Part shown: piece by piece, positions 48,142-54,100 of the stretch
How the letters are laid out: every line of letters starts with the position of its first letter
How positions within the stretch are numbered: the stretch's first letter is position 1
From: Convolutriloba macropyga
Lineage: Eukaryota
DNA length: 64,000 nucleotides
Assembly (NCBI RefSeq): GCF_964194025.1
Contig: NC_134478.1
Coordinates: 29,202,001-29,266,000 of the forward strand
Direction: 5' to 3'
Program-made: the position numbers

Positions 48142-51100
48142 AAGACCGTCGGGAACTCTTTAAGCTCAGAAGTGCAATTTTTGATACGTTGAATTCTAGA
48201 TAGTTGCATCTTCGGAAATACCACAATTTTCTAAATAGATACCCTCGAGAAAGCCTTAATTACGTGAAATAAGATTTTAAAAACCTTTTTTTAAATAAAA
48301 ATTGGGCTTAATAACTAAATTGGCCAAAACTGGTGTCAAACTCTTTTCAAAAGAGAAAAATTCTTGAAATTTCTTTTTGTAGTGGAGTTAAAGAGGCAAA
48401 GAGCTTAAAGTTGATATGACATATGTAAGGTTGGGACGCCATCAAAAAGTAAAAAACTGGGGCTGGCATAAGTTCTCACGTTTTTTTTCTGAAAATACGG
48501 GAACAAAAATTGCATCTACTAATTTGGAATCATAGGGATTATTAATGCTGTGAATGTTTGTAAGCACCCTGTTTTCGCTAAAGATCATGAATAATTTTTA
48601 TGTCGCTCACGTTTTCATGTTAGTTTGAAATCAAACTATTTTTTTTCGAGGAGCAGTCTAGCAGACGCGCTGATCTTCTTTTTGCCAGCCCCAAGGCTGA
48701 GACATATACACTCATACTACTAACTTCAATAAGTTCACCCACCACAGAATGAAAGATCAGGTTACTGGTTCGGTTTCAGGACATCCCGCCTCGAAGCAAC
48801 AAATCGGCTGACCTTCGCAGACAGTACATAAACACTGGACCCCATCCCTGCAGCCGTTCATCTTCCAGCATCAACAACTTCTACTTCGACCCAAAGCGGG
48901 GCATCTGGTCCGAGTACCACGACAGTTACCTTCCGGATCATCTCGGCGATATCAAGTACGGTTACGGGGGTTCTATGAAGTATGGCGGCTCACTACCACG
49001 TCTGAACAGTAACAATAGGTAGGTTGACTCGATTAGTAAAAATGTTTTCAATCTACCATTTTTCAGCATGAGGGGATATTTCACTTTTTTGAAAGTGACT
49101 TTAGCACATTTGGAGGCACAATGTTTAAATTTTGTAGGCATCATGGTGCTGGTTGACATATTAGTTCAGTACTGAATCATAAAAACACAAGTTTGGATTT
49201 TTGCGCCATTTCTATGGTCAACATGATCGATTTTCAAATTTCTCTCTCTAGCCTTTCTGTTCAATTTTTCAGCTTAAATCAATATTGACATGATGTTTTT
49301 CTATTTTACTGAAAATTGCAGTGTTAAGAGATATTGCAGTCGGTGTCCAGTTCTGTCTATTTGCATAGCAGTGGGCCACATAGGCTGGACTGGGTCACAT
49401 AAGTAGGGTTTTCGGCCACCAAGACTGGTCCGATGACGAACAGTCGATTCGAATTCTATGCAGTCAGAACTTGTATTTTAAACTTTATTCCCATTGTATC
49501 ACTAATGAGCGCTATTGAAATTCAATTGTGCAGTGCATAATTACACTGACACCCACCTCCGGGGTACTACTCAAGTAGACAATTCTTTTTTTGCTTTTAT
49601 TTAGAGTTGAACTGTTGGAATATAGATTTGGAATATTGAATATTGGTATAAAAATTGCGGATCGGGTTTACAGATCTGGTCCAGTATTTGGTCCCACTAA
49701 AAGCAGGTTTGTGAAATGATTAAATAACTGCTATTTAACAGTAACAGTAACAGCAGAGGCAGAAGGGGCAGAAATGACTCTGGGAGGTCTCCCGGTTCTC
49801 GAAACAGAAGCCCATCTCGCTACTCATCTACAGCTTCTATATCATCACGCCCATTTTATGGTTAGTTGTATATTCATCGGTTTCTGTTACATTATCTATG
49901 TTTGCTTCCATTCGATTTGAAGTTTGTATACAATATACACATATCTACACCTTAAAGGTTTTTTTAAATGTTTCTATTTAATTGTATAATGATTAGTTTT
50001 TTTTTGAAAGCCTCACAACCATACAGCTTAATAAATCTTACTAGGTGAGTGCGCCAAATTTGATCGCGGCTCACAATTTCCACTTCAGGATTCTTTACTC
50101 ATTCAATTCAATTTTACCTTTAATTAAGGAGAGCTTTGTTTAAATTTCGATCTGGTCGTTTCACTCGCAATTCATTGTTTTTATTTTTAAGTAGTCATTA
50201 GTTGTTTTAATTTTGTTATGTTTGCTTTAGCCGACACTCCAACTTCGCAGAATTCTCCAGTGGTAAGTTCAACCTCATTTCACTTCAATAATTGTGACGG
50301 ATTCTGCTTTGTTTCCTTCAGAATATTGTCATAAAATTATGTACGCACTGAACGTGATTTTAATAATTAATATAACTCTTTTATTGCACTGTTGATGTAT
50401 GTCAGGAAACAGCACTGACCACGAATCGGGGATGATTAAACCAAGACTCTAAGTTTGATATTCTTATTTTGTCAGAATTTCAGCCTTTTTTTTTGTAATA
50501 TCATTTCAATTCAACTTGCCTTTTTTCATAAATGCATATATTTTGCTACAACTTTGTTATTGTTTCAAAAAGTCGTCCGTTTAGAAGGCGATAGAGCACA
50601 GCCCGTCTGATTGGTTAGAAGGACGTCTGAACGAACTACCCTGCATCAACATGGGCAAACAGTTACCCAATGTCCAGTCAAAATACACCCACCCCTCATA
50701 CAAGAACAACAATAGCACGCGAAATAAACGTGGGCGTACTTCAAATCCCCGACGCGCAACTCATGATAAAAACTTCAAAAGTCACAGTGATAGTGATTTA
50801 GTTCACGCAGTAACCCAAAGTGAAAACTTTGACGAATTCCAAAACGAAGATGGCACGAGAGAATTCGAAAATTTAAACCCTGGCGAAAATGAAGCAGTCC
50901 GTTTAATTAAAAGTGAGAACTACGACGATTTTCCAGACGCTAATTTTAGCACTGAGAAATCGGCTAATAGAAACGACAAATTGAATCGCGTTCACGAAGG
51001 CAATCCGAGTGTAAAACCAAACGGGGATGTTTCTGATATAAAAAACAAACGGAGACCTCAAAATAGTGTCAACTGGTCGCCAGTAGGGGACAGAAGATCT

Positions 51101-54100
51101 TCTAAAAATGGAGACGAAATTGATCAAAATGATTCTGCAAAGAGACCACGGAATCCACAAGATGAGAGAAATGACATTGATCCGAGACAGAGAGAAATTT
51201 TTAACAGGGGTAAGTCAAAGTCTATCCAGTGTAAATACATTATTGTGGTGATCCGTGGCAATTCGCTGACTGTTCGTAAACCATTTACAACGATTACATT
51301 GTTTTTGAAAATTTTGGGGATGGCATTCATTACCTAGTTAAATCAGACCAATATTGTGCCGACCGATCTTATTTTCTTTTCCCTATTTTGATGTACTATG
51401 TTTTCGACCTTCAGATGAACTATTTATGCCGCTAAATCTACTCGGAAGAGTTTATGAGTCGTGTTCAAAAATACAATTGATATGGAGTTGAAATTTAATC
51501 TGCTTTTTTTTAATACGTACTCATCATTGTTCGGGTCACTTTGCGTATAACAACAAGACAACTTTTGCTTTGTTGAATTGCTATGGGATTTTTATTGCAG
51601 GAGAAAAGCAAATAAAGTAAAAAGTTAATGTGGACATAAAGAATTTGTACCAGAATTACTTTCTAATCAAATGCGCTGCTTGATTTACAAAGAAAAACTA
51701 GTCATCAATAAGTCACTTGTTTTTCTCAGAGGTCAATATCTATGTATATTTTAGAATAATATATTTTAGAGTTTAAGAAATTTATTGATTTTTTAAATGT
51801 TGTAACGAAGCACTAAGTATCCTCCAATACAAGCAATAAGGTGATACAGCATACCAAGGAGGCTCACTAATGTGCGTTGGCACAATCACTACGTGGCCAA
51901 TGTTCAAAAAATTGGGCATACATTTTATCAAATTGGAGTTGTAAGTGTGTGTGTAGAAAAATTGTAAGAGTTAGTTCAAATTTGCTTAAAATTACCCCTT
52001 TCCCCACGGATACATTATCTAATTACCGAAATGAAAGAACGACTATTTGGTTATTAATTTCAGAGATGTCTATCTCTCTACTAATTGTGGATTAAAGGGA
52101 CAATTAGTTGTTTTGAAATTACCCATAGCACTGCCCACAAAATTTTTGTTTTTGAATTTGGTTTCAGGTTTCTACTAATAAAATTGGGTCCGTGAAATTT
52201 TAGGCTAATTACATGCTAAAATGATTTTCTTTCCCCAAAACGCAAAAAATATTGAATTTTGCCTTTTCGGACATTGGCCACGTAATGATGTTACGACCTC
52301 CTTTATTTTGGCCTAAATTTGTTCGAAATGAAACAAAGATAAGAAACTTTCTATTTATGAAAGAGTATTTTTGTAACTTAAAACATGACTGATCCTAATT
52401 GGATTGTAGATATGTATACCAAAAATTTTACTATCATTGAAGTATTTTTTTCTAATCATTTCACGAGAACGGAAAAATTGGACAGGTCAAATTGTACGGT
52501 TCAGAAAATTAAGAAAATTAATTCCATCTCAAAAAGCTATCTTGACCGCTTGAACGGAAATAAATCAGAAACCAACAGAAAATGAAAAACAGTAGCTAAT
52601 CTGTCAAGTTTTTTACTCATAAGACTTTAGACCCTACGCAAAAATTGCAGATCTCACCAATAGTGCTTAATTTCACTTTCAAAGAAAAATTGGCAAACCG
52701 ACTAACAAAACAACACAAATAAATTATAATTTCAAGACTGCATAAATTTCTTCTTTTTTGTGTTTTCAAGTGAAATTTATCAGTACATATACCAAAACGG
52801 ACATTTAAAGAAAATCTAAACTGTACAGAACACTATGGACAGGCAAAAAATTTAATTTAAGATGTCGTTAACAAAAAAAAACAAAAATTGAGTAAAAAAC
52901 TGCTTAATTTGAGTTTCAAAATCTTCAAAAATTAAACTTTTCACATAAAATTTAGACATTCTCATCAGCTTCAGGACACTGTTTACTTAAAAGGTTACTA
53001 AAGTTAATGCAAATTATTTTCCGTTTGTTTTTGCCTGTTTATCCAGTTCTGAAATAAATAATCGCAATTTTGTACAGTCGCATCTTGCAAAAAAAGAAAG
53101 AGCACCAGTACATAGCAAGTAATAATAAAAAGCAAATTATTTTTTTTAAATTTTGGTTACTCATAGAGATAAAGTCGTTAAGATCAACAATTATCAACCT
53201 TATACATTGAACAGGTTTCTCTTGAAATTTTTTTCGCTGAAAGCCTTTAGAGATTCAGCAATAAGACACCGAAAAGCTTACTTTATTGTAGAGCCTGCAC
53301 TCTTTGGTTGACAAACAATAACAAAACTTGGGGTATAAATAAAAAATAACTGAAAAAAACAGCTTTTGTTTGAAAACAAGGCATATGACAATACGTACAA
53401 GAAAATTATCAAATCAAGATAGAAAAGATTATGCAAAAGGTGAAAACGCGCTTTTCTTCAAAAACTGTTTTTGCAAAGAAATCACAACCAGTTACATATC
53501 GAATAATAAATAAACTAAAGGTGCTCAAAAATACACTAACTCTTGTGAGAGCCAATGAAGGTAGAGAACAAAAATTAACAAAGAGGAATAAAGTAGATTT
53601 GGCAATATAATTTTTTTTTCATTAGTAAAGTCGATATTACTAAATAAAGCTACTGAATAATTAAAAATAGCGAAAGAAACAAATCAGTGTATAAAGAAAC
53701 TTACTGCACTTGTTTTGGTTATTGTAAGATTCTGAATTTTGATTAGGCAGCCTATCACCGGAAAACATTAGCGCCCATATCTCACAATTTCGAAAGATTT
53801 TATTAGGTGGTTCGATTTTGTTTAAACCCGTTTATTTGCTATTTCGGCTCGATTAAAACCAGTTAGTTCCACTAGTCAATTAACAAACTAATAAATAAAC
53901 AACCAACAGAATAAATAGTATCCATAAACTCTAACACAGTAATAGTTAATTGAATAGAATAGTCCAACTAGAATAATAAAAAACAGCACTACCTCCAGCA
54001 CACCTATGCACTATTCAGATTACTGGCTGGTAACCCTAAAGCACAGTAAAACTCGAAAAAATACCCATAATGCCGAGAATTGTTTCGATTCCGATGCGAT

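What the first reader, a model, noticed from the sequence alone, without database searches (positions are those of the whole stretch)
50011..51209. Possible micro-exon frame switch or stop bypass controlling a long C-terminal extension
Seen: with the 34-nt exon included, the 32-nt exon reads SRHSNFAEFSS and leads to TAA at 50450. With it skipped, the same exon reads ADTPTSQNSPV and ends in phase 0, matching GTTTAG|AAG at 50585 and a 208-codon open exon. Separately, the TAA is immediately followed by GT (50453), so an intron 50453-50584 would put the long exon in frame directly behind the stop. Inference: the options are dual-frame alternative splicing, stop readthrough or a nonsense allele, or a second cistron starting at ATG 50651 only ~200 bp downstream. 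This is the most mechanistically interesting spot in the window, but it is speculative and the 50585 acceptor has a weak pyrimidine tract.
Basis: inference. Interest (0 to 1): 0.68.

Follow-up and report, generated by a model that had tools for sequence, protein, structure and literature searches.

The report
Frame-setting micro-exons before a conserved exon
The pattern is really in the sequence, but it is best read as an ordinary multi-exon gene of unknown function whose long last-but-one exon is entered in frame from a 32-base micro-exon. The proposed frame switch, stop bypass and second cistron are untested or disfavoured.

Summary

The long exon (50585-51209; open frame to 51337) is real coding sequence. 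None of 5000 shuffles reached its 250 open codons. A search of 1.84 billion proteins found only two hits: the same ORF called from ATG 50651, and one distant relative, P0002.

P0002 shares a 34-residue block (22/34 identical) that begins 17 residues upstream of ATG 50651. The replacements there are more conservative than neutral drift (69 of 8846 simulations). G+C also steps up at about 50585. The exon is therefore probably translated from its acceptor, which argues against a cistron starting at ATG 50651.

The best route into it is RS-rich exon (49742-49860) > 32-nt exon > 50585. The 34-nt candidate has strong splice signals but always breaks the frame. The 47-nt piece has stops in all three frames and a poor donor. 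It may belong to a proximal terminal exon (acceptor 50322, ATTAAA 50435).

Readthrough of TAA is unlikely. No transcript data were available, so regulation is unproven. This would be a known kind of event (non-triplet or unproductive splicing), and interest is low.

The parts
48780..49018 (+). Candidate coding exon E1 (239 nt). It starts in phase 0 and ends two bases into a codon. No in-frame ATG lies before it, so at least one upstream coding exon has not been found.
   Evidence: G+C 0.52 against 0.36-0.42 in the flanks. Acceptor at the 96.7th and donor at the 99.3rd percentile. No Pfam family, no homologue among longer proteins.
49742..49860 (+). RS-rich coding exon E2 (119 nt, 12 Ser and 9 Arg in 39 codons). 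It ends one base into a codon. Tandem TAACAG repeats give in-frame alternative acceptors at 49748, 49754 and 49757. If the donor is not used, the frame stops at TAG 49863-65.
   Evidence: G+C 0.49. Donor at the 95.4th and acceptor at the 78th percentile.
50011..50044 (+). Candidate 34-nt exon. Including it shifts the frame by +1. It contains AATAAA at 50030-35, and its G+C is intron-like.
   Evidence: Acceptor at the 93rd and donor at the 99.7th percentile. One of 4 strong micro-exon-like pairs in the window. G+C 0.35. No transcript evidence.
50231..50262 (+). 32-nt micro-exon. Read from E2 without the 34-nt exon, it ends in phase 0 and leads into the long exon. An in-frame ATG at 50218-20 lies just upstream (the rival first-exon reading).
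   Evidence: Acceptor at the 95th and donor at the 99.5th percentile. G+C 0.53. Best weakest-link route.
50322..50455 (+). Candidate proximal terminal (or poison) exon. It has the strongest acceptor of the locus at 50322, stops in all frames, ATTAAA at 50435-40 and a T-rich stretch downstream. The 3' end shown is only approximate.
   Evidence: Acceptor score 7.0, 99.8th percentile. T fraction 0.53 in the 40 nt after the signal, against a background 95th percentile of 0.47. Stops in all frames. The 50453 donor is at the 38.7th percentile. The exon itself is an inference.
50585..51209 (+). Long coding exon L (625 nt, 208 codons + 1 base), rich in N, S, R, D and E and predicted to be mostly disordered. 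Weak tandem acceptors lie at 50585, 50588, 50595 and 50602. Strong donor at 51210.
   Evidence: ORF: 0 of 5000 shuffles reach it. Two database hits. Donor at the 99.6th percentile. AlphaFold2 mean pLDDT 52.3, pTM 0.14. 0 Pfam families.
50600..50701 (+). Conserved 34-residue block, the only part shared with the distant relative P0002. It spans ATG 50651 (17 residues before it, 17 from it).
   Evidence: BLASTP 22/34 identical, 30/34 positive, E 1e-16. tblastn HSP 50594-50869. Replacement pattern upstream of the ATG is beaten or matched by 69 of 8846 neutral simulations.
51415..51491 (+). Candidate last coding exon, entered one base into a codon, with stop TGA 51489-91. AATAAA at 51611-16.
   Evidence: acceptor score 3.0. 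Inference only: there is no homology support.

Best explanation
One + strand gene of a lineage-restricted family with no known domain. It encodes a largely disordered, RS/Asn-rich protein.

The productive mRNA most likely joins E1 (48780-49018), the RS-rich exon E2 (49742-49860), the 32-nt micro-exon (50231-50262), the long exon L (entered at 50585 in phase 0) and a short last exon (51415-51491). L is translated from its first codon, not from ATG 50651. Its first 39 codons carry the only conserved motif of the family.

The 34-nt candidate (50011-50044) and the 50322-50455 region, which holds the 47-nt piece and TAA 50450, are not part of the productive message. If they are used, each ends the reading frame early, at TAA 50450, TGA 50608, TGA 50349 or TGA 50433. 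They would then act as frame-breaking ('poison' or short-isoform) alternatives that withhold about 230 C-terminal residues.

Shown:
- the anatomy, frames and phases;
- that L is coding;
- conservation upstream of the ATG;
- the relative strength of the splice signals.

Inferred:
- which junctions are actually made;
- that E2 and L belong to one transcript;
- any regulation.
For: - L is coding: 250 open codons, 0 of 5000 shuffles reach that. It has a relative in another genome.
- The conserved block starts 17 residues before ATG 50651, and no in-frame ATG lies between 50585 and 50651.
- 4 of the 5 replacements upstream of the ATG are conservative. Only 69 of 8846 neutral simulations score as high.
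- G+C is 0.52 in 50585-50650, like E1, E2 and the 32-nt exon (0.49-0.53), and 0.27 in the 132 nt before it.
- In P0002 the five residues before the block follow a stretch that looks like a translated pyrimidine tract ending in Gln. This is consistent with an acceptor at the same place and phase (inference from protein letters only).
- Between 49861 and 50584 only two donors score above 1: 50045 and 50263. From E2 the 32-nt exon restores phase 0, and this route has the best weakest link of the 1055 open routes.
- E2 and L have similar Ser/Arg/Asn-rich composition.
- The locus is not a repeat within the window.
Against: - No transcript, cDNA or annotated gene model could be consulted.
- The 50585 acceptor is weak (47th percentile), and stronger acceptors (50322, 50476, 50089) lie upstream of it.
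- Frame compatibility is cheap: 1055 open routes exist, and acceptors at 50595 and 50602 would accept the other two phases while keeping the conserved block.
- The conserved Met at 50651 has a good initiation context (A at -3, G at +4).
- Family evidence rests on a single relative, known only as a 139-residue ORF call. The simulation rests on 5 replacements.
- The splice matrices are my own approximations of generic consensus, not trained on this organism.
- The start of the gene was not found: 112 of 113 upstream + strand ORFs have no Pfam match, and the remaining one has only a sub-threshold match.
Confidence: 0.4

Rival explanations
1. There are two genes. The upstream gene ends after E2 (unspliced stop TAG 49863-65) or in the proximal exon ending near 50455. 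A separate downstream gene starts with a first exon that holds ATG 50218-20, uses the 50263 donor, and continues in L at 50585.
For: - ATG 50218 is in frame with the phase-0 reading of the 32-nt stretch and is open to the donor (ORF 50191-50334).
- This route also delivers phase 0 to L and explains the conservation upstream of ATG 50651.
- AATAAA lies at 50030 and ATTAAA at 50435.
Against: - An in-frame ATG within the 13 open codons upstream is expected by chance about one time in four (my estimate from base composition).
- The stretch before the ATG is AT-rich like the introns.
- The 50231 acceptor (95th percentile) and the E2 donor (95th) would both be coincidences.
- AATAAA 50030 has no T-rich downstream element (T fraction 0.30).
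Confidence: 0.17
2. L belongs to a second cistron translated from ATG 50651. Its RNA either has its own promoter or is trans-spliced at 50573 or 50585. The 66 nt before the ATG are 5' UTR, conserved for a non-coding reason.
For: - The Met is conserved in P0002 and sits in a good context.
- ATTAAA 50435 plus a T-rich stretch lies about 150 nt before the acceptor, an operon-like layout.
- The weak cis acceptor fits this reading.
- The public ORF call P0001 starts at this ATG, but it is only an ORF call.
Against: - Conservation is as strong before the ATG as after it, without indels, while the rest of the protein is barely alignable.
- The replacements before the ATG look protein-constrained (69 of 8846).
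- P0002's frame is open for 32 codons before its Met.
- No spliced-leader or other RNA family matched in the window (0 matches). This is uninformative, because such genes usually lie elsewhere.
Confidence: 0.15
3. The downstream cistron is trans-spliced at 50585, and the spliced leader itself supplies the start codon, as in flatworm leaders that end in AUG. Translation then begins in phase 0 exactly at the acceptor.
For: - This would explain coding conservation upstream of ATG 50651 with no in-frame ATG in the exon.
- It would also explain the phase-0 acceptor and the upstream polyadenylation-like signal.
- The mechanism is documented for flatworms (passages of PMC9851317, which cite Cheng et al. 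2006; that paper was not seen).
Against: - The organism is unknown, and nothing shows that it trans-splices.
- No leader gene is in the window.
- Cis routes explain the same facts.
Confidence: 0.08
4. Both micro-exons are constitutive. Together they add 66 nt, so the frame is unchanged, and L is entered one base into a codon at the 50595 acceptor. The 32-nt exon is then read in the other frame quoted by the reader.
For: - Both micro-exons have strong signals and are 2 of the 4 strongest such pairs in the window.
- The route is open in frame and keeps the conserved block, which starts at 50600.
- The tblastn match starts at 50594.
Against: - The 50595 acceptor is purine-rich (47.5th percentile) and lies behind two other AGs.
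- The 34-nt piece has intron-like G+C (0.35).
- P0002's N-terminus suggests an acceptor five codons before the block, not two (inference).
Confidence: 0.1
5. All three small exons are included, and the TAA at 50450 is bypassed by readthrough. Alternatively, it is a nonsense allele or an assembly error in this individual.
For: The chain E2 + 34 + 32 + 47 nt is in frame with L, and TAA is its only stop.
Against: - The donor TAA|GTTTGA is at the 38.7th percentile.
- The 47-nt piece has stops in all three frames.
- UAA has the highest termination fidelity, and +4 A/G is the least leaky context (PMC4615788 passages).
- The phase match is a 1-in-3 coincidence.
- There is no sign of a non-standard code: L has 0 in-frame stops of any kind in 250 codons. 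Single in-frame stops in decayed transposon ORFs are a mix of 4 TAA and 3 TGA out of 7.
Confidence: 0.03

Closest known systems
Non-triplet cassette micro-exons that change the C-terminus (for example the 28-nt exon 8 of C. elegans tnt-3). Classes: NMD-sensitive, alternative C-terminal length, dual-coding. Source: PMC13247117, abstract and sections 7 and 13 read.
   Same: - Small exons whose length is not a multiple of three (34, 32, 47 nt).
- Inclusion shifts the frame and decides whether a long downstream coding region is read.
- A stop follows soon after in the shifted frame.
   Different: - No expression data here.
- The shifted reading is short: 32 nt plus at most 24 nt of L, below that paper's 60-nt threshold for dual coding.
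- It would therefore fall in the NMD-sensitive or alternative C-terminal length class, not true dual coding.
Poison exons and unproductive splicing of SR-protein and RNA-binding-protein genes. Sources: PMC11791180 and PMC11062102, search listing and start of abstract only.
   Same: - A gene with an RS-rich exon.
- Candidate cassette pieces that introduce a premature stop far upstream of the last exon junction.
   Different: - No RRM or any other Pfam domain was found, so this is not shown to be a splicing factor.
- Neither conservation of the candidate exons nor NMD sensitivity could be tested.
Drosophila Srrm234: a proximal exon that serves either as a terminal exon with its own poly-A site or as a poison exon, gating a distal exon that encodes the conserved eMIC domain. 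Source: bioRxiv 10.1101/2021.02.24.432780, passages.
   Same: The architecture matches if the 50322-50455 reading is right: an RS-rich protein, a proximal stop-containing exon with its own polyadenylation-like signal, and a distal exon carrying the only conserved motif.
   Different: - No sequence relationship was found: L has 0 Pfam families and only two relatives in 1.84 billion proteins.
- This gene looks small.
- It is an analogy of layout only.
Flatworm spliced-leader trans-splicing, in which the leader's terminal AUG starts translation (slORFs). Source: PMC9851317, passages.
   Same: An acceptor in phase 0 followed by conserved codons that have no ATG of their own.
   Different: The organism is unknown, there is no evidence of trans-splicing, and cis-splicing explains the same facts.
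Programmed stop-codon readthrough. Source: PMC4615788, passages.
   Same: A stop directly followed, after a hypothetical splice, by a long in-frame conserved ORF.
   Different: The stop is TAA with A or G at +4, the least leaky combination. Reaching the ORF also needs a very weak donor.

Membership tests
Non-triplet alternative cassette exon (alternative C-terminus / NMD class) | Exon length is not a multiple of three, so inclusion shifts the frame | tested here: met
   34, 32 and 47 nt
Non-triplet alternative cassette exon (alternative C-terminus / NMD class) | Both the inclusion and the skipping isoform are expressed | not testable with these tools
   No transcript data. The public proteins found are ORF calls on genomic contigs.
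Non-triplet alternative cassette exon (alternative C-terminus / NMD class) | The shifted frame meets a stop upstream of the last exon junction | tested here: met
   TAA 50450 or TGA 50608-10. Both lie more than 500 nt before the 51209 junction.
Dual-coding exon (threshold of 60 or more recoded nt in PMC13247117) | At least 60 nt are read in two frames in stable isoforms | tested here: not met
   32 nt plus at most 24 nt of L before TGA 50608. It would be met only under the unlikely route through the 50595 acceptor, and even then only 32 nt are recoded.
Poison exon of an SR / RNA-binding protein gene | The host gene encodes an SR protein or RNA-binding protein (RRM or similar domain plus an RS domain) | tested here: inconclusive
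   The RS-rich 39-codon exon is present. No RRM or other domain was found in E1, E2, L or the 113 upstream ORFs. The 5' part of the gene was not found.
Poison exon of an SR / RNA-binding protein gene | The exon is conserved, and its inclusion isoform is stabilised when NMD is blocked | not testable with these tools
   The relative's DNA could not be fetched. The genome-contig scan gave 36 pattern matches and 0 confirmed.
Programmed stop-codon readthrough | A leaky stop in a favourable context (UGA or UAG, C at +4, or a known downstream motif) | tested here: not met
   The stop is TAA followed by G (unspliced) or A (if spliced to 50585). Ranking taken from PMC4615788.
Programmed stop-codon readthrough | Protein-coding conservation immediately downstream of the stop, in the same frame | tested here: inconclusive
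   L is conserved from 50600, but it follows the stop only after a hypothetical splice from a donor at the 38.7th percentile.
Independent or trans-spliced downstream cistron starting at ATG 50651 | Coding signal begins at the first AUG, with non-coding sequence upstream | tested here: not met
   The conserved block extends 17 residues upstream, with conservative replacements. G+C is exon-like from 50585.
Independent or trans-spliced downstream cistron starting at ATG 50651 | A spliced leader is added at the acceptor, or a capped 5' end lies nearby | not testable with these tools
   No RNA data. Rfam gave 0 matches in the window, which says nothing about leader genes elsewhere in the genome.
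Srrm234 / eMIC-type gene | Sequence homology of the distal exon to the eMIC / SRRM C-terminal domain | tested here: not met
   0 Pfam families for L at E up to 1. That Pfam holds an SRRM C-terminal model is my recollection and was not checked. No named relatives were found.

The most novel reading that the evidence does not exclude
The tandem acceptors at the head of the long exon (50585/50588, 50595, 50602) act as a phase adaptor. Each of the three phases produced by combining the 34-nt and 32-nt micro-exons has its own acceptor, and each acceptor keeps the conserved block that starts at 50600. Several micro-exon combinations would then all be productive, and the 32-nt exon would be translated in two frames in stable mRNAs. 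One search shows that all these routes are open in frame. Nothing shows that they are used.
Probability: 0.04. Interest if true: 0.6.

Novelty: new member of a known kind. Interest (0 to 1): 0.25.

Why it matters
If the 34-nt exon or the proximal 50322-50455 exon is really used, this orphan gene would carry a splice-level on/off switch for about 230 C-terminal residues, including its only conserved motif. That kind of control has already been described at scale: non-triplet exons, poison exons and alternative last exons.

The practical value is for annotation:
- The public ORF call that starts at ATG 50651 and reads through the 51210 donor is probably wrong at both ends.
- The long exon should be modelled as an internal exon entered in phase 0.

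The conserved 34-residue block marks a small family with no known domain. It may be worth a look once transcripts exist.

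Tried and rejected
- **Homology.**
  - The representative search with L gave 2 hits in 1,835,955,588 proteins.
  - The word-index searches gave nothing new: E1 against longer proteins (35 candidates, 0 hits), L against proteins of near length (86 candidates, only the self ORF), and P0002 against near length (7 candidates, only itself).
  - ESM Atlas gave no usable hit.
  - PDB sequence searches with L and E1 gave nothing credible (best E 0.041 and 0.28).
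  - Pfam found 0 families for L, E1 and E2. Of 113 upstream + strand ORFs, 112 had no match and one had a sub-threshold match. Five minus-strand ORFs plus P0001 and P0002 gave 0 of 7.
- **DNA of the relative.** The genome-contig scan with the two-sequence alignment gave 36 pattern matches, none confirmed. That collection is prokaryotic, so this was a long shot.
- **Structure.** AlphaFold2 on L with the two-row alignment gave mean pLDDT 52.3 and pTM 0.14. I used it only as a hint of disorder and made no fold search.
- **Non-standard genetic code** (TAA or TGA read as sense). Rejected. L has no in-frame stop of any kind. The single in-frame stops between long transposon ORFs are a mix (4 TAA and 3 TGA of 7), as expected for decaying copies.
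- **The two micro-exons as duplicated, mutually exclusive exons.** The alignment of the two regions shows 44 of 94 identical columns, mostly T runs and splice motifs. Not supported.
- **Similarity between P0002's N-terminus and another frame upstream of 50585.** No significant tblastn match. Dropped.
- **Bacterial promoter/terminator scan.** 5 sites against 3.4 +/- 1.9 expected. Irrelevant for a eukaryote.
- **Repeat or transposon origin of the locus.** Only a self match plus one 30-nt match within the window.
- **Joined spliced model.** Searches were exon by exon (E1 and L only).

Full report
**Setting.** The window is AT-rich: G+C is 0.30-0.42 in 2-kb steps. It carries a Ty3/gypsy-type retroelement at 1-6176 on the minus strand (RVT_1, RT_RNaseH and gag matches), other decayed reverse-transcriptase-like ORFs, a dispersed 1.1-kb repeat and one run of N at 27684-27816, which I left alone. 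It has no tRNA gene and no Rfam match. It is a eukaryote with GT-AG introns. I could not name the organism, and nothing suggests that it is human.

reproduce every coordinate, dinucleotide, phase and translation in the finding.
- The RS-rich exon 49742-49860 ends one base into a codon.
- The 34-nt piece (50011-50044) and the 32-nt piece (50231-50262) are both bounded by AG and GT.
- With it skipped, the 32-nt piece is read in the second frame and ends in phase 0. This matches the only open frame of 50585-51209 (0 stops, against 11 and 27 in the other frames).
- The sum 1+34+32+47 is 114, so an intron 50453-50584 would place the long exon in frame behind the TAA.

**The long exon is real coding sequence.** Its frame is open for 250 codons, where about 16 stops are expected from its composition. 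None of 5000 shuffles exceeded 167 codons.

A full HMMER scan of 1.84 billion representative proteins found two hits.
- P0001 is the same sequence called as an ORF from ATG 50651 through the 51210 donor to TAG 51335. It comes from a 532-kb genomic contig, has no name and is a single-member cluster. It is therefore an ORF call, not evidence for a start or an end.
- P0002 is a 139-residue ORF call from a 28-kb contig of another genome.

**The conserved block spans the ATG.** The only clear similarity between L and P0002 is a 34-residue block at residues 6-39 of the exon (window 50600-50701). It is 22/34 identical and 30/34 positive, with E 1e-16. tblastn of P0002 against the window confirms it (50594-50869).

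Seventeen residues of the block lie upstream of ATG 50651. No in-frame ATG lies between 50585 and 50651, and the codon before 50585 is TAG. If those residues are translated, the exon must receive its reading frame from outside.

Two further observations support translation.
- The five replacements upstream of the ATG are mostly conservative. In a neutral substitution simulation conditioned on five changes and no stop, 69 of 8846 runs scored as high. For the 17 residues from the ATG onward the figure is 340 of 5517.
- G+C is 0.52 in 50585-50650, as in the other exons (0.49-0.53), and 0.27 in the 132 nt before it.

Beyond the block the two proteins barely align. AlphaFold2 sees little structure in L (mean pLDDT 52.3).

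**How the frame most likely arrives.** Between the RS-rich exon and L, only two donors score above 1 on my matrix: 50045 (after the 34-nt piece) and 50263 (after the 32-nt piece), at the 99.7th and 99.5th percentiles of 1770 GTs.

With their acceptors (93rd and 95th percentile) these two pieces are 2 of only 4 micro-exon-like pairs at that strength on both strands of the window, and 2 of 9 at a looser cut. Two such pairs within one 724-nt interval is unlikely by chance. The strict cut was chosen after seeing them.

From the RS-rich exon, the 32-nt piece alone restores phase 0. This route has the best weakest link among 1055 open in-frame routes built from 322 candidate exons. The N-terminus of P0002 reads like a translated pyrimidine tract ending in Gln, five residues before the block. 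That is where 50585 lies in the window. This is an inference from protein letters only.

I therefore take RS-rich exon > 32-nt exon > 50585 as the productive path, continuing through the strong 51210 donor to a short last exon 51415-51491, with AATAAA at 51611.

**What the other pieces would do.** The 34-nt piece has intron-like G+C (0.35) and contains AATAAA. If it is spliced in, the frame shifts and ends at TAA 50450 or at TGA 50608-10 inside L.

The 47-nt piece has stops in all three frames, and its donor is at the 39th percentile. It cannot be an internal exon of a productive message.

The strongest acceptor of the whole locus lies at 50322 (99.8th percentile). ATTAAA lies at 50435-40, inside the 47-nt piece, and is followed by a T-rich stretch (0.53, above the background 95th percentile of 0.47). 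A proximal terminal exon of about 50322-50455 is therefore a plausible alternative ending, with a stop at TGA 50349-51 when entered from the 32-nt exon in phase 0. The TAA would then lie in its 3' UTR.

All of these events would remove the long exon's product. None creates a second long reading.

**Rivals.**
- An in-frame ATG at 50218-20, just before the 32-nt stretch, could start a separate downstream gene that uses the same donor.
- Translation could start at the conserved Met 50651 on an independent or trans-spliced RNA. This fits the upstream polyadenylation-like signal but not the conservation before the ATG.
- In an organism whose spliced leader ends in AUG, the leader could itself start translation at 50585 (mechanism from passages of PMC9851317).
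- Both micro-exons could be constitutive (66 nt together), with entry at the 50595 acceptor (open, but a poor acceptor).
- Readthrough of TAA is the weakest option. UAA is the most faithful stop, and A or G at +4 the least leaky context (PMC4615788 passages).
- I also checked for a non-standard code and found no sign of one.

**Comparison with what is known.** There, a 28-nt micro-exon of tnt-3 swaps the C-terminus (PMC13247117, abstract and sections 7 and 13).

By that paper's criteria this case would be NMD-sensitive or of alternative C-terminal length, not dual-coding. The layout with a proximal stop-bearing exon and a distal exon carrying the conserved motif resembles Drosophila Srrm234 (passages). 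No sequence relationship was found. Poison exons of SR-protein genes are a further analogue (abstracts only), but no RNA-binding domain was found here.

**Limits.**
- No transcript data, no annotated gene model and no DNA of the relative were available.
The prokaryotic genome collection gave nothing.
- Supplementary files of the papers were not consulted and do not bear on the claims.
- Searches were made exon by exon (E1 and L).
- The splice matrices are recalled generic consensus values, not trained on this genome.
- The gene's 5' end is unknown.

**Verdict.** The pattern is real and the long exon is a genuine, conserved coding exon entered from upstream. The exotic readings are unsupported, and the plausible ones belong to well-known classes.

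Noticed in passing
window 4038-6176, minus strand: The gag-side ORF of the Ty3/gypsy-type element is open for 713 codons apart from three in-frame TGA codons (at 5835, 5286 and 4821), each after an Asn codon. A further in-frame TAA lies at 3571. Across the window, single in-frame stops between long ORFs are 4 TAA and 3 TGA, so I read them as decay rather than recoding.
   Followed up: partly
window 49736-49756, plus strand: Tandem TAACAG repeats at the acceptor of the RS-rich exon offer alternative acceptors 6, 12 and 15 nt downstream. All are in frame and would trim 2-5 residues.
   Followed up: no
window 50651-51337, plus strand (public protein P0001): A public, unnamed ORF call matches this locus exactly. 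It starts at ATG 50651 and reads through the strong 51210 donor into intron-like sequence. It is probably mis-delimited at both ends.
   Followed up: yes
window 42298-43407 and 46680-47796 (also 41767-42278 and 47481-47991): Two copies of a dispersed repeat of about 1.1 kb, 76% identical, with further fragments at 79-88% identity. They lie upstream of the gene, possibly within its unlocated 5' introns.
   Followed up: partly
window 48075-48136: An (AC)n microsatellite of 62 nt, about 650 nt upstream of exon E1.
   Followed up: no
window 59132-59188 and 59607-59657, plus strand: The only other two strong micro-exon-like AG...GT pairs in the window. They lie opposite a minus-strand 276-codon ORF (58311-59141) that I took by eye for a reverse-transcriptase remnant, although Pfam found no family in it. 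They may be exons of another + strand gene, or chance.
   Followed up: no
window 48416-48424, plus strand: An ATG followed two codons later by GTAAGG (donor score 1.6) would join E1 in phase 0. It is a possible but unsupported first coding exon.
   Followed up: no
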